Shown in pieces: positions 3,357 to 27,325 of a stretch of DNA of 64,000 nt. A program made the translations under genes and the position numbers. The stretch is from a virus, in IMG/VR virus record IMGVR_UViG_3300045988_101308, positions 60,792-124,791 of that record. One strand, given 5' to 3'. Every line of letters starts with the position of its first letter. Within the stretch, counting starts at the first letter, position 1. Below the pieces are notes generated by a model. The model was not told the origin of the DNA. It ran no database searches and saw only the letters and a list, made by a program, of their open reading frames with translations.

Positions 3357-3388
3357 TTTGCCATATTATGGGTTAGTACTTAACTTTG
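3357..3388 (+). promoter_or_regulatory. Bacteroidetes-type promoter (TTTG -33 element at 3357-3360, TAACTTTG -7 element at 3381-3388) ahead of the tRNA cluster
   Basis: TTTG, a 20-bp spacer, then TAnnTTTG; matches the Bacteroides sigma-ABfr consensus. About 85 bp upstream of the first tRNA. Confidence 0.45.
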
Positions 3389-3436: not shown

Positions 3437-3470
3437 ATGCAGGCGTCTGTGAAGGCTCCTGCATATTTTT
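3437..3470 (+). terminator. hairpin plus T-run (terminator or attenuator) just upstream of the tRNA cluster
   Basis: Stem ATGCAGG / CCTGCAT, 14-nt loop, then TTTTT. Confidence 0.45.
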
Positions 3471-3472
3471 AA

Positions 3473-3545
3473 GGTCCTGTAGCTTAGTGGTGAAAGCAAG
3501 ATGCTCATAACATCGAGATCGTGGGTTCAAATCCCTCCGGGACCA
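3473..3545 (+). tRNA. tRNA-Met (anticodon CAT; could be Ile2-lysidine)
   Basis: Cloverleaf: acceptor GGTCCTG / CGGGACC; D arm GCTT-AGTGGTGA-AAGC; anticodon loop CTCATAA; T loop GGGTTCAAATCCC. No encoded CCA. Confidence 0.8.
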
Positions 3546-3546
3546 C

Positions 3547-3617
3547 TGTCCAATGGTGTAGTGGTAGCACAACAGATTTTGGTTCTGTTAGCGGAAGTTC
3601 GATCCTTCCTTGGATAA
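3547..3617 (+). tRNA. tRNA-Gln (anticodon TTG)
   Basis: Acceptor TGTCCAA / TTGGATA; anticodon stem ACAGA / TCTGT with loop TTTTGGT; T arm GGAAG-TTCGATC-CTTCC. Starts 1 nt after tRNA-Met. No encoded CCA. Confidence 0.75.
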
Positions 3618-3686
3618 CGATTAAGTTTTTGTGGAAATGTTAATTATCTCAGTGTTTGCGGTGTGTGAACATAGCAAACATTAAAT

Positions 3687-3758
3687 GGCCCATTAGTTTA
3701 ATGGATAAAACCTTTGAGTCCTAATCAAAAGTTGCCTGTTCGATTCAGGCATGGGCTA
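3687..3758 (+). tRNA. tRNA-Arg (anticodon CCT)
   Basis: Acceptor GGCCCAT / ATGGGCT; D stem GTTT / AAAC; anticodon stem TTTGA / TCAAA with loop GTCCTAA; T arm GCCTG-TTCGATT-CAGGC. Confidence 0.8.
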
Positions 3759-3761
3759 CAT

Positions 3762-3833
3762 GGCTTGTTGGATGAGTGGTTTAGTCAGGGGTCCGCAAAA
3801 CCTCGTATGGCGGTTCGATTCCGCCACAAGCCT
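3762..3833 (+). tRNA. tRNA-Cys-like (anticodon GCA) with a non-canonical C33 and a 3-bp D stem
   Basis: Perfect acceptor GGCTTGT / ACAAGCC and T arm GGCGG-TTCGATT-CCGCC. Anticodon stem GGGGT / ACCTC with loop CCGCAAA. Position 33 is C, not the near-universal U, so decoding identity is uncertain. Confidence 0.55.
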
Positions 3834-3850
3834 CTAAAAAAAGTAAGACA

Positions 3851-4543
3851 ATGAACTACCCAGAGCAACAAATGCTTAAGATCCTTAATAGGGATCTGTT
3901 AAGTAATCCGATGTATGTTATTAACAATCTCCATATATATGATTGGGAATCTGACTTCCTGGCCATAACAAGATCATTGTACGCTTATGAAGTAGAGGTC
4001 AAGATGTCTAAACAAGATTTCTTTAACGACTTCAAAAAGGATAAAAAACATAAGGTTCTTAAAGACGGCATTATTAAGGTAGGTGGTGTCATAAGCTATC
4101 CTCCAAACTATTTCTACTACGCCTGTCCGCCTAATATGATTGACGTAAGTGAAGTCCCTTCTTATGCCGGGCTGATTTATGTCGATGTTAGTAAAAATAG
4201 GAAGAACGTCGTTAAGGTAGCACCTTTAATTCATAGACAGAAGTTTGATGTAGTGGGTAGGAAACTGGTGGATAAGTTTTACTACAATATGCTTACTTGG
4301 AAGAAAAGAGCTATTTCAAACGTGTATGCTGACCCAGCCAAGGAAAGAGAGAAAGGCGTGCGTGCCGGAGCTGAGGCTGTGAGGAAGTCGGCCTGGGATG
4401 CGTTCAGGGCGCAGTGCCCGCACATTGCTTTCCCCTATGGAAAAGAATTTCCGATGTGTGACGATCACGAACAAGATCATCCCATGAGAGACTGCATACT
4501 TCAGTGTGAAAAAGGTAGAATATTTAAAAACAAATTAAAATGA
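3851..4543 (+). CDS. PD-(D/E)xK-type nuclease-like protein with a C-terminal Cys/His cluster
   Basis: IYDWESD ... YAYEVEVKMS fits the D...(E)xK catalytic arrangement. C-terminus CPHIAFPYGKEFPMCDDHEQDHPMRDCILQC looks metal-binding. Confidence 0.45.
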   Translation: MNYPEQQMLKILNRDLLSNPMYVINNLHIYDWESDFLAITRSLYAYEVEVKMSKQDFFNDFKKDKKHKVLKDGIIKVGGVISYPPNYFYYACPPNMIDVSEVPSYAGLIYVDVSKNRKNVVKVAPLIHRQKFDVVGRKLVDKFYYNMLTWKKRAISNVYADPAKEREKGVRAGAEAVRKSAWDAFRAQCPHIAFPYGKEFPMCDDHEQDHPMRDCILQCEKGRIFKNKLK

Positions 4544-5680: not shown

Positions 5681-6094
5681 ATGAAAGTGGATTTTTTTAA
5701 CAGTAAGGATTTTTTAGGATCTAAAACTAAAGAAAGCAAGATCCGGAAGTTGTCAATCAGCAAAAGTAAGATAATGACTATCTCTGTCTATAATTTGAAT
5801 TGGATGGGGGTAACGGATGCGGTTGTTATCGGCTTAGAAGAAGGGAAGATATTTGAAGGAGTTGAAAATACGGTCTTTTATCTGGCTGCTTCTGATGTTG
5901 AAGACGAGAGATCGTTTAAGGTAAATAACCTTGGTGTAAAATACAAGAGGATTTACTTAAAAGACCTGCTCGATTATCTTGGATGGGATATAGGAGAAAA
6001 TTCTTATGCTGTGTATGATATTATAAAAGAAGACAGTAATCTATTCCGTCTTCAGCTTAGGGTGATAAAAAAGAGTAGGAGTGAAAAATTATGA
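5681..6094 (+). CDS. hypothetical protein (137 aa), first gene of the HAD/DHH operon
   Basis: Stop codon overlaps the start of the HAD gene (ATGA); no motif. Confidence 0.45.
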   Translation: MKVDFFNSKDFLGSKTKESKIRKLSISKSKIMTISVYNLNWMGVTDAVVIGLEEGKIFEGVENTVFYLAASDVEDERSFKVNNLGVKYKRIYLKDLLDYLGWDIGENSYAVYDIIKEDSNLFRLQLRVIKKSRSEKL

Positions 6095-6966
6095 ACGATG
6101 TAGATATTAAAAACAAAAGAATACTGCTATTCGATTTTGACGGGACGCTTATAGAAACCGCTTCTGGGAATACGTTCGCTACAGACTTGACAGATATGAG
6201 GATTAAGATGGATGTGGTGAATAAGGCTCTTGACCTCATGCAGGAGAACGGTGTTAAGGTATTTGCTATCGTAAGCAATCAAGGAGGAGTAGAAGCTGGG
6301 TTTGTTTCTGGAGCTGATATTGAAGCTAAGATAGAATACGTACTGAGGTCCGTACATGATCTGGCGGTAAAGAGAGGCATAAGAGGCGTCCTATATGAAA
6401 AAAGGTTGTGTTATTCAAATGACGAACAAAATCCGATGAGGAAGCCTAACACTGGCATGATTGATGATATTCTTATGAAGTGTAAAGACACGGTAATGCG
6501 TGGTATGAACTTTAGTCAACTTAAGGGATGTTCGTTGATGGTCGGGGACGCCAGTGGCCTACCAGGGCAGTTCTCTGATTCGGATAAGGTATGTGCTGAG
6601 AAGGCCGGCGTTGAATATATGGATGTTATCACGTTTGTTGGTAAAGACCTTGATTTGAATTATGTGTTGTCCAAAGAACATACAAGTGAAGGAATAGTTA
6701 TTCTAAACAACGATCATATATATATCCTTGAAAATCCATATGGGGTTGGTCTTAATATAAAAATCACTTTAAAAGATTTTTATAAGATTGAAACCGATGA
6801 TGGAAAAACTGCAACCGTAGATGATGTGCTGAATATAAGGATTGATAAAGATCAGAATTTCAATTCATATAGTGATGTTATAAAAATAGAAACATTAAAA
6901 GACGGTAGTATCAAATATACAAGCTTATATCATGAAAGTAAAGAAAACAGCGATAGTTTATCATAA
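6091..6966 (+). CDS. HAD-superfamily phosphatase (PNKP 3'-phosphatase-like or GmhB-like) with a C-terminal extension of about 100 aa
   Basis: HAD motif I LFDFDGTLIE (DxDGT), motif II VSNQGG (S/T), motif III K in RKPNTGM, motif IV MVGDASGLPGQFSDSD. Confidence 0.7.
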   Translation: MNDVDIKNKRILLFDFDGTLIETASGNTFATDLTDMRIKMDVVNKALDLMQENGVKVFAIVSNQGGVEAGFVSGADIEAKIEYVLRSVHDLAVKRGIRGVLYEKRLCYSNDEQNPMRKPNTGMIDDILMKCKDTVMRGMNFSQLKGCSLMVGDASGLPGQFSDSDKVCAEKAGVEYMDVITFVGKDLDLNYVLSKEHTSEGIVILNNDHIYILENPYGVGLNIKITLKDFYKIETDDGKTATVDDVLNIRIDKDQNFNSYSDVIKIETLKDGSIKYTSLYHESKENSDSLS

Positions 6967-8346: not shown

Positions 8347-8368
8347 TGTGATGAGGAAGAAAGGTAAA

Positions 8369-8570
8369 AATGTTTATGTTACGGGAGAGAGATTAAGAAT
8401 GTTTATGTGATAGGAGAGAAGCTAAAAAAGGTTTGTGTGATGAGGGATATGAAAGATGTTTATGTGATGGGAGAGAGATTAAGAATGTTTATGTGATAGG
8501 AGAGAAGCTAAAAAAGGTTTGTGTGATGAGGGATATGAAAGATGTTTATGTGATGGGAGAGAGGGGGTAC
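8369..8570 (+). repeat. iteron array: 6-7 contiguous copies of a 25-33-bp unit, consensus ATGTTTATGTGATRGGAGAGA; higher-order period 86 bp
   Basis: Unit starts: AATGTTTATGTTACGGGAGAGAGATTAAG (8369), AATGTTTATGTGATAGGAGAGAAGCT... (8398), GTTTGTGTGATGAGGGATATGAAAG (8430), ATGTTTATGTGATGGGAGAGAGATTAAG (8455), then an exact 86-bp repeat of the last three. No spacers, so not CRISPR. Confidence 0.8.
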
Positions 8571-9587: not shown

Positions 9588-10084
9588 CAAGGCACGGAGA
9601 GCGCCGTTAAGCTCTCCAAAGGTTTGACGCGTACCGTTAAACGCGTCTGTACGCCGTTGTCAGTGGGTGCACGTCCCGCGTATGCTTTAGACTGAAGCTG
9701 ACAAAATAGAGAGTTATTTTACATATTGGAGATAGATATACCGTTGCCCTTGCCGTTGGCAATTAAAGGGCTGGTATTACTGCATGGACTATCCGAATAG
9801 GTATAGTTTATGTTAGGTATGTGATTACAGTTTGGAAAACATGCCGTTGTACGAGGTTTATCTCCAGATCGAAACGTGTCTTACTTGCTTACACGAAAAA
9901 TAGAACAAGGCTGTAGATTAAATTACAGGGTACAAGCATGTAGCCTACCATGTAGGTACGTGCCGTATCAAAACGCAAGGACACAATCGCCTTTATTTGT
10001 GGCTAAGTTGTGTAGCAGACGGAAAATATAATAACAACATAGTACGGGCCTGTACACAAGAACTACGTACTAATTACGGGCTGT

Positions 10085-10148
10085 TGGTTGTAGCATAAAA
10101 TTCGTACAGGATAGGAATGCGCGTTCGGTTCGATTCCGGAGCAACCTC
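10085..10148 (+). ncRNA. tRNA-like element A (T arm TTCGG-TTCGATT-CCGGA plus acceptor-like 3' strand GCAACC); too short (about 62 nt) for a canonical tRNA
   Basis: GGTTCGATTCC T-loop identical to that of the tRNA at 3762-3833. A 5' GGTTG can pair with the 3' CAACC. Ends 24 nt before a small ORF at 10172. Confidence 0.35.
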
Positions 10149-10171
10149 TAAATTATAAACAATATAATAAC

Positions 10172-10342
10172 ATGGAAAAGAAAGAAATGATCAACGCTTT
10201 AACTGAAGCGTTCAATAAATCTAAAAACATCTGCGTAAAAATAACATTGCGTAACTATATCGAGACGGTGGAAACACTCAGTGAAAATGAGTATAAAGAG
10301 GCGGAGGGTTTCTATATCGAAGCTCTTAACCGCTGGAGTTAA
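10172..10342 (+). CDS. small hypothetical protein (56 aa)
   Basis: ATG 24 nt downstream of tRNA-like element A. Not in the supplied ORF track because it is under 60 aa. Low confidence. Confidence 0.3.
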   Translation: MEKKEMINALTEAFNKSKNICVKITLRNYIETVETLSENEYKEAEGFYIEALNRWS

Positions 10343-10364
10343 TCATAATTAAAGCATAAAGAAA

Positions 10365-10571
10365 ATGGAAAGGAAATTTAAATCTTATATGGTAGACGTC
10401 CGCGGTCTGTCCAGGAAAGAAGCTAAAGAAAAGCGGAAAAGAGCGTATCGGGAATTTATGTTGTATCGTGATCTCAAAGAAGCGTATCATGCCGATACGG
10501 GAAAGGACAAATGCAAACGTAAAGTCCATACATCACGAACTTACGTGAAGGAAAACATAAACAGTATTTAA
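10365..10571 (+). CDS. small basic protein (68 aa, K/R-rich)
   Basis: Highly basic composition; candidate nucleic-acid-binding protein. Confidence 0.35.
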   Translation: MERKFKSYMVDVRGLSRKEAKEKRKRAYREFMLYRDLKEAYHADTGKDKCKRKVHTSRTYVKENINSI

Positions 10572-10676
10572 ACAGGAGTAGGGTTGTTTCGAATATCGGA
10601 GCAGCCCTATTTTTGTATCCTACTCTTTCTATTTACGGGTAGGATATTCTGAGAGTGAACGGCGGATGTAAGCTAT

Positions 10677-10769
10677 ATTGGTCTAAAACGAAACTAAAAT
10701 AGGATAGTTTGGATATAATGCCGGTATTTTGTCTATATCATGTCGTTAAAATTGGTCTAAAACGAAACT
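10677..10769 (+). repeat. 19-bp perfect direct repeat ATTGGTCTAAAACGAAACT (10677-10695 and 10751-10769)
   Basis: Exact duplicate 74 bp apart within a 1-kb non-coding stretch. Confidence 0.7.
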
Positions 10770-11296
10770 TTATGCGGTTTTCTGGCCAAAAATAGGGTTC
10801 CGGATTCCGCCTTTTTCGTCTCTATAGATTGAAAATTAGGCTTATTGTATTTTTCTTAAAAATTATGTATGCTTGATTATCAATTAGTTAGGTTTTATAA
10901 TCCCCGTATTTTCGGACATACTTATTGTATTTTTTTTATTTTATGTGGTGGTTTTTATTAGTAGCTGACTTGTATTTTCTGTCGGTTGGTATTCGCTCTA
11001 TGTTGGAGTACGGACCGGATCAGTATAATATTGTAATGGTCTTTTGCTTTTCTTTATTGGCTTTGATTATAGGCTTAAATATCTATCTTGATAGGAGGAG
11101 CAGGCGGTAGGGCGTGGGCTGAAGGCTCTCTATTCTCTCTATGGAATGATATTATCTCTAAATACCCCATACTTCATGCCAGAGTATAAGCTTGTAGCGC
11201 TCTCCGTATGCCTGTAGTGAGACCGAGAGCGCAGGTTCTATGCGGAAAGACAGAGGATTAGACGGGGTTGGAGAGGGGGAGAGGGAGGGCACTCTC

Positions 11297-11501
11297 TTCC
11301 CGCAAAATTCAACAGATCAGCGTTTTAAAACAGCATTCTGTAGGTTCTTCCCGCAAAATTCAACAGATCAGCGTTTTAAAACAGCATTCTGTAGGTTCTT
11401 CAAACAAAATTAAGGATTGCAGTGCTTTAAAACAGCATAATGTAGAATTTTCCAACAAAATTAAGACTTACAGCGTTTTTAAAACAGTATTCTGTAGGTA
11501 A
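11297..11501 (+). repeat. 4 x 51-bp tandem repeat (copies 1-2 identical, 3-4 degenerate), each carrying the palindrome GTTTTAAAAC
   Basis: TTCCCGCAAAATTCAACAGATCAGCGTTTTAAAACAGCATTCTGTAGGTTC x2, then TTCAAACAAAATTAAGGATTGCAGTGCTTTAAAACAGCATAATGTAGAATT, then TTCCAACAAAATTAAGACTTACAGCGTTTTTAAAACAGTATTCTGTAGGTA. Confidence 0.85.
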
Positions 11502-11569
11502 GGGTTAAGGACTGTATTATGTGAGTATTTTTTTCAATCGGAATGTATAACAATTAAAACATAAACAAC

Positions 11570-11791
11570 ATGAACGTATATGACTTTGCGCCTGACTTAG
11601 ATTTGAGTAAGGAGGTAGAAGGTTCTATTTTTGGGGTGAAAGGAATAGAAGGTAGTGATGGTATAGTATATGCTAAGGTAGTTAACTGTGTAGAAGTTAA
11701 GGATTACAGTTGTGATAGGTGTATTTTTGATGATTGTTATAAGAATAAATGTTTGTTATCACATAGCAATAGTTGTATAGATGGAGACTGA
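11570..11791 (+). CDS. small Cys-rich protein, paralog family member 1 (73 aa)
   Basis: Shares FxPDLDLSKE...CDRCIFDDC with 13261..13509 and CDRCIFEDYDSCSC with 39169..39366. Confidence 0.5.
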   Translation: MNVYDFAPDLDLSKEVEGSIFGVKGIEGSDGIVYAKVVNCVEVKDYSCDRCIFDDCYKNKCLLSHSNSCIDGD

Positions 11792-12354
11792 TGTTGTAGG
11801 TACGAACAGGCTGCCATAGAGGGGGAGTAGGCGGCGCCTTGGGCTAAGGCCTGCGGTTGTAGGTGGAACGTAGGTCGGAGCAGAGCCAGGACAGTTTATT
11901 GTGGAACGTAAAAAGAAAAAAGATGGAAAGGACAATACATTATATTTGGATAAATTGGGTATCTTCTACAGGTTCGGAAAGTAGTAGGCTAATAAGCAAC
12001 AGGTCTATGCCGGTATCAGATGCCAAAGAGATGATATTAAGAACGAGTGCTAAAGAATTGCTTAAATACAGACCGAGTTGGTTAAAGGACTGTGTTCGTA
12101 TTAGTGTAAGTGCACAGGATATTACGACCGGAGAGATCCTGTATAGAAGAACTATAAACATAAAGAAGAAGGAGATAGCGATATGAAAAAGGCATTTAAG
12201 ATATTTTCTATTATGTTTGTCATAGAAATAGTGCTGATAGCTATTTTAGATGCTATGGCGTAAGTGAGAAAAATTTCTTCATTAATTTTCTTATGCTTTA
12301 GACAGAGTGCTCCCGTCTGCGAAGATCGGAGCACTTGCTTTATGGGATTCATGG

Positions 12355-12388
12355 TGCGGTAGGTCGGTTCGATTCCGGCGATCTCACA
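12355..12388 (+). ncRNA. tRNA-like element B (T arm GTCGG-TTCGATT-CCGGC plus acceptor-like 3' strand GATCTCAC), preceded by the hairpin 12308-12336
   Basis: Same GGTTCGATTCC T-loop. A 5' GTGAGA at 12263-12268 could pair with TCTCAC at 12382-12387. Ends 29 nt before the ATG at 12417. Confidence 0.35.
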
Positions 12389-12416
12389 CAACATTAAAAA
12401 CAAAGGAGGAAAGAAA

Positions 12417-12764
12417 ATGAAAGATGGTATTACATTACATCCAGAACACGGATTGAATCCGTCTATAGAAGTCTGCATGATATGTGGCGAAGAGATGGGG
12501 ATTGCTTTATTAGGGAATAACATCAAAGGGCAGGCGCCGCATCATATATGCACGGGCGGAGTATGTGACAATTGCAAAAAGATAATAGATGACGGAGGTT
12601 GTTTTATTATCGAAGTCGAGGATGGATCAGATCAAAAGAATCCGTATCGTACAGGGAGATATTGTGCGATAAAGAAAGAAGCAGCAAAGAAAATACCTGG
12701 ACAGGAACATAGTGTTGTGTACATGGAAAAGTCTGCGTACAGTCAAATAATACCACAAAAATAA
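12417..12764 (+). CDS. hypothetical Cys-rich protein (115 aa)
   Basis: CMICGEEM ... HHICTGGVCDNCKK ... GGCF suggests zinc binding. Lies directly downstream of tRNA-like element B. Confidence 0.5.
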   Translation: MKDGITLHPEHGLNPSIEVCMICGEEMGIALLGNNIKGQAPHHICTGGVCDNCKKIIDDGGCFIIEVEDGSDQKNPYRTGRYCAIKKEAAKKIPGQEHSVVYMEKSAYSQIIPQK

Positions 12765-12772
12765 AGAAAGAT

Positions 12773-13087
12773 ATGTTTACAAAAGAAGAGCGATTATTCA
12801 TTTGGAAAAAGGTATATGAGATGATTGATTGGCAAGAGGATGGGGAATACATATGTGTTGCGTTAAGAAATGTAGTGTTTATGTATTTCAAAAAACATAA
12901 AAATATTTATGAGTTTCGTTCAGACGAAATGGTGAGAATATATTTCCCGGAATTGGAGGAAAAGAAAAGTATGGCTACAGAACCAGAAGAAGAATGGAGG
13001 ATATATGGATGGTTTGGCAGTATTAGTCCAGAAACGAAGGAGGTGAGGCTAAATATCGTAAAAGACATTATAAAAGAATTAGAATAG
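12773..13087 (+). CDS. hypothetical protein (104 aa)
   Basis: Tiles after 12417..12764; no motif. Confidence 0.4.
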   Translation: MFTKEERLFIWKKVYEMIDWQEDGEYICVALRNVVFMYFKKHKNIYEFRSDEMVRIYFPELEEKKSMATEPEEEWRIYGWFGSISPETKEVRLNIVKDIIKELE

Positions 13088-13147
13088 TATTTTTGTTAAT
13101 CTATTTTATTCATCAAATTAAGTTTTGGGTTTTGGCATGTCGGTTCG

Positions 13148-13241
13148 TGAGAATAGGCATGCCTATTTCTGTATCATAGAGGGATGGCGCGGCGTGCCGG
13201 TATGTATGTGTCGGTTCTGGTTCGATTCCAGGAATCTCACA
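13148..13241 (+). ncRNA. tRNA-like element C (T arm TCTGG-TTCGATT-CCAGG plus acceptor-like 3' strand AATCTCAC; 5' TGAGAAT at 13148-13154 can pair with it)
   Basis: 93-nt span with a 6/7 acceptor-like pairing and a canonical T arm, but no convincing D or anticodon arm. Ends 20 nt before the ATG at 13261. Confidence 0.35.
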
Positions 13242-17168: not shown

Positions 17169-17205
17169 CCGGCACTGGTCTGCGAAGATAGGTGCCGTTT
17201 TTTTT
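17169..17205 (+). terminator. rho-independent terminator after 16738..17148; its loop carries the motif GTCTGCGAAGAT
   Basis: Stem CGGCAC / GTGCCG, 16-nt loop TGGTCTGCGAAGATAG, then TTTTTTTT. Confidence 0.65.
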
Positions 17206-26662: not shown

Positions 26663-27325
26663 ATGAACAATTTTATAATAGATACTCCAGATAATTTCTG
26701 GCAAATAAGATGGCTTGACAAATATATGGAAGGTCACAAGGGGTTCATAGCTGGTGGATGTTTTAAGAATATCCTTTCCGGAGAAAAAGTAAAAGATATT
26801 GATATTTTCTTTGAAAGCGAAGACGATTTTCAGGAAGCTGTTGATTTGTTCAATGATGAAAAACATCAGAAAGAAGGATGGAAATTTAAGTACAGGAATG
26901 AGAAGGTATGTGCGTTCCATAAAGAGGGAGAAAGGGTATGGATAGAGTTCATAGAGTCAGAGTTCGGAAAGCCTGAAGAGATTCTCAGGAGCTTCGACTT
27001 TACTGTGGCAAAAATGGCTTACTACAAGGAGCCTAAATACGAAGAAGAGGAAGATGATTATTTTCCATTCTCATCTGCAAGTATAGTAGCATACGAGTAC
27101 AAACTACTCTACCATGAGAAATTCTTTGAACATCTTCATATGAAGAGGCTGGTCATTGATGAAAATATTCCTTTTCCAGTAAGCACATGGGAACGCTCAT
27201 ATCGGTATAAAGGATATGGTTACAATATGTGCCGGGAGACAAAGAAAAAACTTCTACAGGCTCTTAAAGGTGTAAACGTAGAGGAGGAAGATGTATCTTT
27301 GTACACTACTGGAGGATGGGATTAA
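26663..27325 (+). CDS. minimal Pol-beta-superfamily nucleotidyltransferase of the tRNA CCA-adding / poly(A) polymerase class II head-domain type (220 aa)
   Basis: FIAGGCFKNILSGEKVKDIDIFF matches GGxVRDxLLGxxxKDxD. RSFDFTVAKMAY matches the RRDFTINAMA motif. Too short to contain a full neck/body region. Confidence 0.65.
   Translation: MNNFIIDTPDNFWQIRWLDKYMEGHKGFIAGGCFKNILSGEKVKDIDIFFESEDDFQEAVDLFNDEKHQKEGWKFKYRNEKVCAFHKEGERVWIEFIESEFGKPEEILRSFDFTVAKMAYYKEPKYEEEEDDYFPFSSASIVAYEYKLLYHEKFFEHLHMKRLVIDENIPFPVSTWERSYRYKGYGYNMCRETKKKLLQALKGVNVEEEDVSLYTTGGWD

What the first reader, a model, noticed from the sequence alone, without database searches (positions are those of the whole stretch)
10085..13241. 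Three tRNA-like elements (T arm plus acceptor 3' strand) placed 20-30 nt upstream of small genes
Elements at 10085-10148, 12355-12388 and 13148-13241 all contain the exact T-loop GGTTCGATTCC (identical to the bona fide tRNA at 3762-3833), closed by a 5-bp stem and followed by a 7-8-nt acceptor-like 3' strand. Two of them end ...ATCTCACA.

Partial 5' complements exist 60-125 nt upstream, but D and anticodon arms cannot be drawn, so these are not canonical tRNAs. Each ends 20-29 nt before the ATG of a small gene (10172, 12417, 13261). Two of those genes encode Cys-rich proteins and one is a member of the CDRCIF paralog family.

Candidate functions:
- RNase P / RNase Z processing signals that define mRNA 5' ends;
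- translation enhancers or tRNA-mimic regulatory elements;
- armless tRNA-like RNAs;
- remnants of att core sequences.

The positional regularity argues for a dedicated function.
Basis: seen in the sequence. Interest (0 to 1): 0.65.

Follow-up and report, generated by a model that had tools for sequence, protein, structure and literature searches.

The report
Anticodon-less tRNA-like elements in crAss-like phage
A gut crAss-like phage carries three conserved stripped-down tRNA look-alikes (acceptor stem plus T arm only), two of them behind a terminator-like hairpin and all just ahead of small genes, which most likely recruit the host's tRNA-processing enzymes to cut its messenger RNAs, as plant mitochondria do.

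Summary
GGTTCGATTCC occurs at 10127, 12366 and 13219, and each element ends 19-28 nt before an ATG.

The anatomy needs correcting. Each element is a compact minihelix: a 6-bp acceptor-like stem lies directly next to a 5-bp T stem with a canonical T loop. An insert of 13-32 nt replaces the D and anticodon arms, and the element ends N-C, like the phage's real tRNAs.

ARAGORN and Rfam reject all three. No bacterial tRNA shares their 3' end.

They are conserved in more than 117 related phage contigs, vary less than synonymous sites, and their substitutions keep the pairing.

E2 and E3 follow a GNRA-capped, terminator-like hairpin. The same hairpin precedes the real tRNA-Met and tRNA-Arg, and also tRNAs in a distant crAss-like family. 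Among 120 such hairpins in IMG/VR, 12 precede tRNAs and 35 precede anticodon-less tRNA-like elements (random control 1/120).

The best reading is tRNA-derived RNase P/RNase Z processing signals, a phage counterpart of plant mitochondrial t-elements. Cleavage itself is inferred, not shown.

The parts
10086..10149 (+). E1 minihelix. Layout: GGUUGU (10086-91), 32-nt insert, T arm UUCGG-UUCGAUU-CCGGA (10124-40), GCAACC (10141-46), tail UCU. A tRNA-sized 71-nt reading starts at 10078 (GGGCUGU).
   Evidence: The descriptor finds it. Across 16 distinct variants 99.6% of cells are paired, and the T stem has a two-sided compensatory change (CG to UA). The acceptor and T arm vary at 14% of sites, against 39% at third codon positions. 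Similarity to the phage tRNA-Cys gives z=6.8, most of it from the T arm.
10041..10081 (+). Structured region 5 nt upstream of E1, made of two interleaved stems (pseudoknot-like): S1 10041-46 with 10066-71, and S2 10048-54 with 10075-81.
   Evidence: Divergent relatives carry compensatory changes: AGTACG/CGTACT becomes ATCACG/CGTGAT, and GCCTGTA/TACGGGC becomes GCCCGAA/TTCGGGC. This was read directly from the sequences. It rests on few sequences, and no formal pair count was made.
12305..12336 (+). Hairpin H1 of E2: GAGUGCUCC-C-GUCU-GCGA-AGAU-C-GGAGCACUU (GNRA loop, 1x1 internal loop).
   Evidence: Three pairs show two-sided compensatory changes among 45 variants. It matches the H1 descriptor, which finds 7 copies in the window against 0.11 in shuffles.
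12344..12388 (+). E2 minihelix. Layout: GGGAUU, 13-nt linker CAUGGUGCGGUAG, T arm GUCGG-UUCGAUU-CCGGC, GAUCUC, tail ACA. U12343 can pair with A12386 to give a 7th pair.
   Evidence: The descriptor finds it. T-stem variants GUCGG and GCUGG both pair with CCGGC. An unrelated phage group has the same design, GGGCAU-[14 nt]-T arm-AUGCCC-AC. Conservation of the 3' 23 nt is biased, because that sequence was the retrieval pattern.
12264..12304 (+). AT-rich, highly conserved stretch between the stop codon of a 26-codon ORF and the H1 of E2. It is promoter-like and contains GUGAGA 12264-69, an alternative partner of the tail UCUCAC.
   Evidence: Only 10% of sites are variable. RNAalifold pairs GUGAGA with UCUCAC, but without any covariation. 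Its role is unresolved.
13088..13133 (+). Invariant AT-rich stretch upstream of the H1 of E3. It begins with a perfect Bacteroidota -7 box, TATTTTTG (13088-95).
   Evidence: None of its 46 sites varies in about 100 genomes. That it is a promoter is an inference.
13134..13163 (+). Hairpin H1 of E3: GGCAUGUC-G-GUUC-GUGA-GAAU-A-GGCAUGCC.
   Evidence: All 12 pairs are kept in 42 variants; every change is one-sided. Only 9% of sites vary. The same inner core, with many different covarying outer stems, occurs in at least 120 IMG/VR contigs.
13181..13241 (+). E3 minihelix. Layout: GGGAUG, small hairpin GCG-CGG-CGU, 8-bp hairpin 13196-13215, T arm UCUGG-UUCGAUU-CCAGG, AAUCUC, tail ACA.
   Evidence: RNAalifold predicts this fold. 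Across 29 variants 98.4% of cells are paired, against 26-51% when partners are slid; 17 of 22 pairs vary. L015 carries a two-sided change, GGAAUG/CAUUCA. G-run indels rule out coding.
3437..3464 (+). H1-type hairpin 8 nt upstream of the bona fide tRNA-Met. A canonical promoter, TTTG-N20-TAACTTTG, lies at 3357-3388.
3653..3680 (+). H1-type hairpin 6 nt upstream of the bona fide tRNA-Arg. tRNA-Cys follows and ends 17 nt before the ATG at 3851.
26663..27325 (+). Gene for a truncated, 220-aa class II tRNA nucleotidyltransferase-like protein (CCA-/A-adding family). This is context, not part of the elements.
   Evidence: It is 95% identical to the csAssE-Sib protein annotated as a CCA-adding enzyme. 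The AF2 model has pLDDT 77. The top 43 PDB fold matches are all tRNA nucleotidyltransferases, with E down to 9e-6. Pfam gives only E=0.06.

Best explanation
E1, E2 and E3 are tRNA-derived elements reduced to the part of a tRNA that processing enzymes read. That part is an acceptor-like stem stacked on a canonical T arm, with a short insert where the D and anticodon arms used to be. The insert contains GG and may mimic the D loop.

The elements lie inside + strand transcription units. Each follows a stable upstream structure: a terminator-like GNRA hairpin for E2 and E3, and a pseudoknot-like region for E1. Each lies 19-28 nt ahead of the next start codon.

Proposed mechanism:
1. RNase P cuts at the 5' edge of the minihelix. 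The upstream RNA is left ending in the protective hairpin.
2. RNase Z, or exonucleases acting with the CCA-adding enzyme, acts at the N73-C flank. This releases the downstream mRNA with a short A-rich leader.
3. The polycistronic phage RNA is thereby split into separate, independently stable messages.

Shown: the structure, its conservation under constraint, its parallel with real tRNAs in the same phage, and the wide recurrence of the design. Inferred: transcription through the elements and the cleavages themselves.
For: - Minihelix architecture. It is present in E1 and E2 by a strict descriptor, which finds 0.7 hits per 64 kb in shuffles. It is present in E3 in most relatives.
- Paralogs. 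Four paralogs, including E4 in L033, have unrelated stem sequences that all pair.
- Structure-preserving variation. 98-99.6% of cells are paired, against 26-53% when partners are slid. Compensatory changes occur in the T stem of E1, the acceptor stem of E3 and the hairpin of E2.
- Constraint. 9-21% of element sites vary, against 39% at third codon positions and 31-39% in other non-coding DNA.
- Same geometry as a real tRNA. tRNA-Cys ends 17 nt before an ORF. All real tRNAs and all elements are followed by N73 plus C.
- Hairpin coupling. H1 hairpins occur 7 times in the window against 0.11 expected. Four of the seven lie 6-17 nt upstream of a tRNA or tRNA-like element. The same arrangement appears in a distant Intestiviridae phage.
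- Wide recurrence. Of 120 IMG/VR hairpins, 12 precede tRNAs and 35 precede anticodon-less tRNA-like elements; the control gives 1 of 120.
- Phage toolkit. The phage encodes a tRNA nucleotidyltransferase-like enzyme, a Pnkp and an Rsr.
- Precedents. Plant mitochondrial t-elements were found with the same GGTTCRANYCC scan and direct RNase P/Z cleavage (PMC1920247). Phage RNAs and mRNAs are known RNase P substrates (PMC11143913).
Against: - There are no transcript-end data, so cleavage is entirely inferred.
- The acceptor-like stems have 6 pairs rather than 7. E2 and E4 can add a U-A pair. E3 and E1 have an A.A or U.U mismatch at that position. The effect on RNase P or RNase Z is unknown.
- Most variation within the family is one-sided wobble change among close relatives (93-96% identity), so formal covariation within each element is weak. 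The shuffle controls for E3 are uninformative.
- A terminator-like hairpin just upstream could stop transcription before the element is ever made.
- An alternative pairing of the tail with GUGAGR exists.
- The invariant AT-rich stretches suggest the elements may lie at the very start of their own transcripts. If so, the '3'-end protection' half of the model does not apply.
Confidence: 0.5

Rival explanations
1. Trans-acting tRNA mimics. After release from the transcript, the 45-65-nt minihelix RNAs are themselves the functional product. They could be decoys or sponges for host tRNA-targeting defence nucleases or acceptor-end-modifying toxins. They could equally be ligands or substrates of the phage's own truncated CCA-adding-like enzyme, Pnkp or Rsr.
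For: - A perfectly canonical T loop and a conserved GG-containing linker suggest that a tRNA-elbow mimic is maintained.
- The phage invests in tRNA and RNA-repair functions: an NTase, a Pnkp, and an Rsr with a YrlA-like RNA.
- The same element sits in front of different genes in different relatives. Its value therefore does not depend on the downstream gene.
Against: - The elements have no anticodon arm, so they cannot decoy anticodon nucleases, the best-known tRNA-targeting defences.
- Nothing indicates a stable small RNA.
- The strict placement just upstream of start codons, and behind hairpins for E2 and E3, is better explained by a cis role.
- The elements do not match YrlA.
Confidence: 0.2
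2. Decaying tRNA pseudogenes with no function of their own. They are remnants of duplicated 'hairpin + tRNA' modules and persist only because the phage lineage is young.
For: - E1 has exactly tRNA length and resembles the phage tRNA-Cys.
- The hairpin-plus-tRNA module is ancestral.
- Low-scoring tRNA 'pseudogenes' are reported in other Crassvirales (bioRxiv 10.64898/2026.08.21.746148).
- The comparison set is closely related (93-96% identity).
Against: - The acceptor and T arms vary 2-4 times less than synonymous sites and other non-coding DNA.
- The substitutions that do occur keep pairing: in E3 there are 18 extra standard pair types, and non-standard cells occur at only four of the 22 pairs.
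- Decay is selective. The middle of E1 varies while its arms do not.
- At least six unrelated sequence types of anticodon-less elements sit behind hairpins in other phages. Independent neutral decay would not keep producing the same architecture.
Confidence: 0.15
3. Recombination modules. The repeated, conserved elements serve mainly as homology patches that shuffle small gene cassettes between phages, like the promoter-stem-loop (PeSL) cassettes of T4-type phages.
For: - Synteny breaks within about 12 nt of the element's 3' end. E2 is followed by MKDG... in about 65 contigs and by MLKEEF... in about 51. E3 is followed by MEVITF... or directly by MRIYKND....
- One contig joins E2 to E3's gene, as expected from crossover between the shared ...GGTTCGATTCC..ATCTCACA.AAC tails.
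- A fourth copy sits at a variable position in L033.
Against: - Any conserved element flanked by variable genes will appear as a mosaic boundary.
- Shared sequence between copies is only about 30 nt.
- Recombination does not explain why pairing, a canonical T loop and the hairpin coupling are maintained. It is more likely a side effect than the selected function.
Confidence: 0.1
4. Relics of attachment sites, or copies of host tRNA 3' ends.
For: T arm plus acceptor 3' strand is the typical content of a tRNA-borne att core.
Against: - GGTTCGATTCCNNNNATCTCACA gives 5 matches in 596 Gb of bacterial and archaeal genomes, which is about chance, and none lies in a tRNA gene.
- No integrase appears in the annotated complete relative.
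- The 5' strand is present and paired.
- There are three to four copies per genome.
Confidence: 0.01

Closest known systems
t-elements of plant mitochondria (Hanic-Joyce 1990; Forner et al. 2007, PMC1920247)
   Same: Both are non-canonical tRNA-like structures that keep the GGTTCRANYCC T arm and an acceptor stem. Both are embedded in mRNA precursors next to coding regions. In mitochondria their borders coincide with mRNA 5' and 3' ends made by RNase P and RNase Z. Canonical tRNAs do the same job at other genes in the same genome.
   Different: The system is a bacteriophage of Bacteroidota, not an organelle. These elements are more reduced (inserts down to 13 nt). Two of the three here, and many elsewhere, are coupled to a specific GNRA terminator-like hairpin. 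Cleavage has not been demonstrated here.
mascRNA / MEN-beta tRNA-like elements of MALAT1 and NEAT1
   Same: In both cases a tRNA-like structure lies directly downstream of a 3'-end-protecting structure. RNase P cleavage creates the mature 3' end of the upstream RNA.
   Different: Those RNAs are eukaryotic. The protecting structure is a triple helix, not a hairpin. mascRNA keeps a cloverleaf. No Rfam mascRNA match covers E1-E3; the model only weakly hits the real tRNA-Met.
Bacterial and phage RNase P substrates that are not tRNAs (P1/P7 C4 antisense RNA, phage M3 RNA, operon mRNAs; reviewed in PMC11143913), and tRNA-mRNA operons such as E. coli tyrU-tufB
   Same: These are phage or bacterial RNAs whose processing relies on acceptor/T-arm-like mimicry, or on tRNAs co-transcribed upstream of an mRNA.
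   Different: Those are single cases. This is a recurring, modular family with a canonical T loop and a dedicated upstream hairpin. The comparison with tyrU-tufB rests on general knowledge, not on a test made here.
YrlA (bacterial Y-like RNA with a tRNA-like module, Rfam RF02553)
   Same: Both are tRNA mimics lacking an anticodon. The phage encodes Rsr (Ro60) and has a weak YrlA-like match next to it (28.5 bits).
   Different: YrlA has a permuted T-arm/D-arm module enclosed by a Ro-binding stem. E1-E3 give no YrlA match, lack the closing stem, and lie more than 60 kb from rsr.
Promoter-early stem-loop (PeSL) cassettes of T4-type phages
   Same: Both are short repeated regulatory modules with a stem-loop, sitting between small genes in a plastic genome region and coinciding with gene-shuffling boundaries.
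   Different: PeSLs contain no tRNA-like part. This comparison comes from memory of the literature and was not tested.

Membership tests
Canonical tRNA (Rfam RF00005 / ARAGORN) | Cloverleaf with a D arm and a 5-bp anticodon stem closed by a 7-nt loop; scores above the model threshold. | tested here: not met
   ARAGORN in default mode makes no call. Rfam gives no tRNA hit at E<=10 for E1 or E2. E3 scores 16 bits against tRNA-Sec, whose threshold is 47. The inserts are 13 nt in E2, hairpins with 3- and 4-nt loops in E3, and a variable 32 nt in E1.
Canonical tRNA | Acceptor stem contiguous with a 5-bp T stem, and a T loop of the form UUCRANY. | tested here: met
   Descriptor hits and alignments show this. 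The T loop is UUCGAUU in all three. The acceptor stem has 6 pairs rather than 7; E2 can form a 7th.
tRNA-like processing element (t-element type) | A non-canonical tRNA-like fold that retains the T arm and acceptor stem and lies inside an mRNA precursor next to a coding region. | tested here: met
   The structure is established. The elements are intergenic, on the coding strand, 19-28 nt before an ATG. The real tRNA-Cys has the same geometry.
tRNA-like processing element (t-element type) | Transcript ends coincide with the element borders; the element is cleaved by RNase P and RNase Z. | not testable with these tools
   This needs 5'/3' end mapping or in vitro cleavage.
tmRNA / alanine-accepting minihelix | A conserved G3.U70 pair, A73, and a tag reading frame. 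| tested here: not met
   In E2 and E3 a G.U pair falls at 3-70 in tRNA numbering. It is G-C in the L015/L116 variants and in E4, and A-U in some variants. There is no credible tag ORF; only a low-threshold ARAGORN call exists. tmRNA models match the T arm alone, at 6-7 bits.
YrlA / Y RNA | A Ro-binding closing stem together with a permuted T-arm/D-arm module. | tested here: not met
   No RF02553 match overlaps E1-E3. By contrast, a separate locus next to rsr in the relative scores 28.5 bits.
tRNA-borne att site relic | Identity to the 3' part of a host tRNA gene. | tested here: not met
   The pattern gives 5 chance-level matches in 596 Gb, and none lies in a tRNA.
Intrinsic (Rho-independent) terminator, for the upstream hairpin H1 | A stable G+C-containing hairpin followed by a U tract just after a stop codon. 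| tested here: inconclusive
   Most copies are followed by a U-rich tract and lie after stop codons. The E3 hairpin resembles the terminator hairpin of the Bacteroides sRNA BTnc231 (17.4 bits). However, tRNAs start 2-14 nt after the hairpin with no room for a promoter. The motif also has extra conserved features: G.U in 12/15 and 3' A in 10/15.

The most novel reading that the evidence does not exclude
Gut crAss-like and related phages carry a widespread, undescribed two-part RNA module. It consists of a specific GNRA hairpin with a G.U pair and a 1x1 internal loop, followed by a tRNA or an anticodon-less mini-tRNA.

In this reading the mini-tRNAs are not mere processing signals. They are released as stable tRNA-elbow mimics, matured by the phage's own truncated CCA-adding-like enzyme, and act in trans. 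They might titrate or misdirect host factors that recognise the acceptor/T-arm half of tRNAs, such as defence nucleases, acceptor-end toxins, RNase P/Z, or modification enzymes.
Probability: 0.15. Interest if true: 0.85.

Novelty: new variant of a known kind. Interest (0 to 1): 0.62.

Why it matters
If these minihelices are cut by RNase P and RNase Z, the most abundant phages of the human gut punctuate their transcripts with stripped-down tRNAs. That strategy is known from mitochondria but not described for phages. It would explain how small early genes gain defined, short leaders in hosts that lack Shine-Dalgarno-based initiation.

It would also reclassify many 'tRNA pseudogenes' in phage annotations as functional elements.

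Finally, it would give two searchable motifs for annotating transcription-unit boundaries in uncultured Crassvirales: the minihelix and the covarying GNRA hairpin. The coupling with a phage-encoded minimal CCA-adding-like enzyme, Pnkp and Rsr suggests a larger phage programme acting on tRNA-shaped RNA.

Tried and rejected
- **ARAGORN in relaxed, intron and organellar modes.** Only low-threshold, mutually inconsistent calls came out: tRNA-Ile(gat) for E1, intron-containing calls, and a permuted 'tmRNA'. I rejected them as evidence.
- **Single-sequence folding.** z-scores were weak (+0.7 to -2.0) and not informative on their own.
RNAalifold also proposes it for E2. It shows no covariation. In E3 it lies inside the hairpin. 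An unrelated E2-like element supports the short-range stem instead. I keep it only as an unresolved alternative pairing.
- **Alanine identity (G3.U70).** It is not conserved.
- **YrlA or Rsr ligand.** There is no model match.
- **Host tRNA or att relic.** Refuted.
- **Sigma-70 promoter and terminator scan.** Counts were at background and uninformative for a Bacteroidota phage.
- **More distant annotated relatives through Pnkp.** Few exist. One, MT835492, showed nothing relevant in the 50 kb examined.
- **Literature on 'csAssE' and on crAss-like tRNA-like elements.** Nothing relevant was found.
- **Pfam on the downstream genes.** No domains were found.
- **Shuffle control for E3 pairs.** It is uninformative because the changes are one-sided wobble steps.

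Full report
**Source and setting**

The window is about 93% identical to phage csAssE-Sib (OR575929.1; 151 kb; human gut). That phage is crAss-like, with ring, muzzle and BACON-type proteins. Around the finding all genes run on the + strand. The elements lie in a stretch of small ORFs and long non-coding gaps at 8.3-14 kb.

The genome has six tRNAs: Met, Gln, Arg and Cys at window 3473-3834, and Tyr and Lys elsewhere. It also encodes:
- a polynucleotide kinase/3'-phosphatase (PF08645, E=1.7e-20);
- an Rsr/Ro60 homologue, with a weak YrlA-like RNA beside it (28.5 bits);
- a 220-aa protein at window 26663-27325. Its predicted fold matches only class II tRNA nucleotidyltransferases among the top 43 PDB hits.

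**Check of the observation**

GGTTCGATTCC is exact at 10127, 12366 and 13219, and in tRNA-Cys. With up to one mismatch there are 5 sites against 0.79 expected. ARAGORN and Rfam recognise only the four real tRNAs. This holds even on short stretches with permissive thresholds.

**Corrected anatomy**

RNAalifold on 42 distinct E3 sequences pairs the 3' strand (C/A)AUCUC with GGGAUG, immediately upstream. This stem is contiguous with the T stem. The same register exists in E2 (GGGAUU/GAUCUC, with a 13-nt linker) and in E1 (GGUUGU/GCAACC, with a 32-nt insert).

A strict descriptor asked for a 6-bp stem abutting a 5-bp T stem with a T-loop consensus. It recovers three real tRNAs plus E1 and E2. Shuffled sequence gives 0.7 hits per 64 kb. 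The window copy of E3 has one G.A mismatch, but 77 relatives have the perfect stem.

**Conservation and structure-preserving change**

The 23-nt 3' end of E2 occurs in more than 117 IMG/VR contigs. All are the same homologous element. E1 was found in 50 of these loci and E3 in 102.

| Region | Sites variable |
|---|---|
| Third codon positions | 39% |
| Other non-coding DNA | 31-39% |
| E1 acceptor + T arm | 14% |
| E3 hairpin | 9% |
| E3 minihelix | 21% |

E2's own 3' end is biased by the way the loci were retrieved.

In E3, 17 of 22 pairs vary, yet 98.4% of cells stay paired. Sliding the partners gives 26-51%. In E1, 99.6% of cells are paired, and the T stem has a two-sided change. The E2 hairpin has three compensatory pairs.

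Most changes are one-sided wobble steps between close relatives, so covariation within each family is modest. The stronger evidence comes from paralogs and variants:
- A fourth copy in L033 reads GGGACG...CGUCCC-ACA.
- An E3 variant reads GGAAUG/CAUUCA.
- Six unrelated sequence types in other phages share the same architecture.

**What the elements are not**

- *Decoding tRNAs.* No anticodon arm can form.
- *tmRNA or alanine minihelices.* The G.U at 3-70 is not conserved.
- *YrlA.* There is no model match.
- *Host-tRNA or att relics.* The pattern gives 5 chance-level matches in 596 Gb of genomes, none inside a tRNA.

No relative has a full tRNA at these positions. E1 has exact tRNA length and resembles the phage tRNA-Cys. 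The overall z is 6.8, mostly from the T arm. The first 13 bases match at 10 positions and the trailer CCUCUAAA is shared. This suggests descent from a tRNA gene.

**The hairpin partner**

E2, E3 and E4 each follow a hairpin of fixed design: a variable outer stem of 7-9 bp, a 1x1 internal loop, a 4-bp inner stem and a GNRA loop. This design occurs 7 times in the window, against 0.11 in shuffles.

- Two copies lie 8 and 6 nt upstream of the real tRNA-Met and tRNA-Arg.
- In the distant Intestiviridae phage MH616963, copies lie 3 and 11 nt upstream of tRNA-Gln and tRNA-Leu. One shares E3's inner core but has a different outer stem.
- The pair next to the internal loop is G.U in 12 of 15 copies, against 14% in the null. 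The 3' unpaired base is A in 10 of 15.

I then scanned IMG/VR for the inner core. Of 139 matches, 120 were genuine hairpins. Their outer stems covary strongly: 198 doubly changed cells against 68 +/- 7 in shuffles, with 0 of 500 shuffles reaching the observed value.

| What follows the hairpin within 25-30 nt | Count out of 120 |
|---|---|
| tRNA called by ARAGORN | 12 |
| Acceptor + T-arm element that ARAGORN rejects | 35 |
| Neither | 73 |
| Control: minihelix found at a random site | 1 |

Elsewhere the hairpin sits after stop codons and is followed by a U-rich tract. It resembles a Bacteroides sRNA terminator hairpin. No Rfam family covers it.

E1 has instead a pseudoknot-like pair of stems 5 nt upstream. 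These show compensatory changes in a few divergent relatives.

**Flanks**

The real tRNAs are followed by N73 plus C: AC, AC, AC and UC. The elements show the same flank: UC for E1 and AC for E2-E4 and for all six outside types. The real tRNA-Cys ends 17 nt before the ATG at 3851, so a genuine tRNA occupies the same position relative to a gene.

A canonical Bacteroidota promoter lies upstream of the tRNA-Met hairpin. A perfect -7 box opens the invariant AT-rich stretch before E3's hairpin.

**Mechanism**

The acceptor/T-arm minihelix is the part of a tRNA read by RNase P, RNase Z and CCA-adding enzymes. This is established knowledge (see PMC11143913).

The best-supported model is cis-acting punctuation:
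- RNase P cuts 5' of the minihelix. The upstream RNA is left with a hairpin-protected 3' end.
- RNase Z, or trimming, at N73-C frees the downstream mRNA with a short A-rich leader.

Plant mitochondrial t-elements are the closest precedent. They were found with the very same GGTTCRANYCC scan (PMC1920247). MALAT1/mascRNA shares the logic of a protective structure followed by a tRNA-like element.

The cleavage steps are inferred, not shown. It also remains open whether the hairpin terminates transcription, attenuates it, protects a 3' end, or marks a transcript start.

**Rivals**

- *Trans-acting mimics* (0.2). This fits the phage's tRNA and RNA-repair toolkit, and the element's independence from the downstream gene.
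- *Neutral pseudogenes* (0.15). Constraint and recurrence argue against this.
- *Recombination modules* (0.1). Synteny does break at the 3' edge, but this is probably a by-product.
- *att relics* (0.01).

**Verdict**

This is a real, conserved, structured feature. It is a new bacteriophage variant of tRNA-like processing elements, and it belongs to a wider hairpin-plus-(mini)tRNA module that I could not find described in the literature searched or in Rfam. Its function still needs RNA-end mapping.

Noticed in passing
window 3437-3464, 3653-3680, 12307-12334, 13135-13162, 17170-17197 (+); 59756-59729, 53081-53054 (-); also L130, L131, L134-L253: A conserved hairpin motif: covarying 7-9-bp outer stem, 1x1 internal loop with a 3' A, 4-bp inner stem starting with G.U, and a GNRA (mostly GUGA) loop. 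It is widespread in gut phage contigs, absent from Rfam, often followed by a U tract, and often followed by a tRNA or mini-tRNA.
   Followed up: partly
window 26663-27325 (+): A 220-aa protein with a GG-x11-DxD motif. Its predicted fold matches only class II tRNA nucleotidyltransferases (CCA-/A-adding), but it appears to lack the body and tail domains. It has more than 1100 homologues in metagenomes (PF26128).
   Followed up: partly
L130 22601-22705 (csAssE-Sib record 72601-72705), outside the window: A weak full-length YrlA (Y RNA-like) match (28.5 bits, E=0.006). It lies just upstream of tRNA-Tyr, tRNA-Lys and a phage Rsr/Ro60 gene, suggesting a phage-encoded Ro-Y RNA system.
   Followed up: partly
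window 11295-11500 (+): Four tandem copies of a 51-nt unit (TCTTCCCGCAAAATTCAACAGATCAGCGTTTTAAAACAGCATTCTGTAGGT). They lie in a 1-kb non-coding region next to the point where the linear GenBank record of the relative ends. This could be an origin, a packaging region or a regulatory array.
   Followed up: no
window 8356-8562 (+): Five copies of a 35-nt repeat containing ATGTTTATGTGAT, at alternating 29- and 57-nt spacing (an 86-nt super-unit). They are followed by a C-rich stretch and lie in non-coding DNA.
   Followed up: no
window 10572-10616 (+): A very stable 21-bp hairpin followed by a T tract (-29 kcal/mol, z=-7.5), right after the two small genes downstream of E1. It is probably the terminator of that unit. 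The GenBank record of the relative ends about 40 nt later.
   Followed up: partly
window 6091-6963 (+): The polynucleotide kinase/3'-phosphatase is only 65% identical in protein to that of csAssE-Sib, whereas flanking DNA is about 93% identical. This looks like a mosaic replacement of an RNA-repair gene.
   Followed up: no
window 12264-12269; E3 hairpin loop 13147-13152; E4 in L033: GUGAGA or GUGAGG upstream of E2, E3 and E4 is complementary to the tail UCUCAC or UCCCAC. This pairing overlaps the acceptor 3' strand and would compete with it. It could be a conformational switch or a coincidence.
   Followed up: partly
L129 45751-47816 and L130 8986-10125, 14190-15413 (csAssE-Sib, outside the window): The relative's annotation lists a diversity-generating retroelement (VR/TR/IMH plus reverse transcriptase) next to a tail-fibre gene, and two TnpB-type genes.
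   Followed up: no
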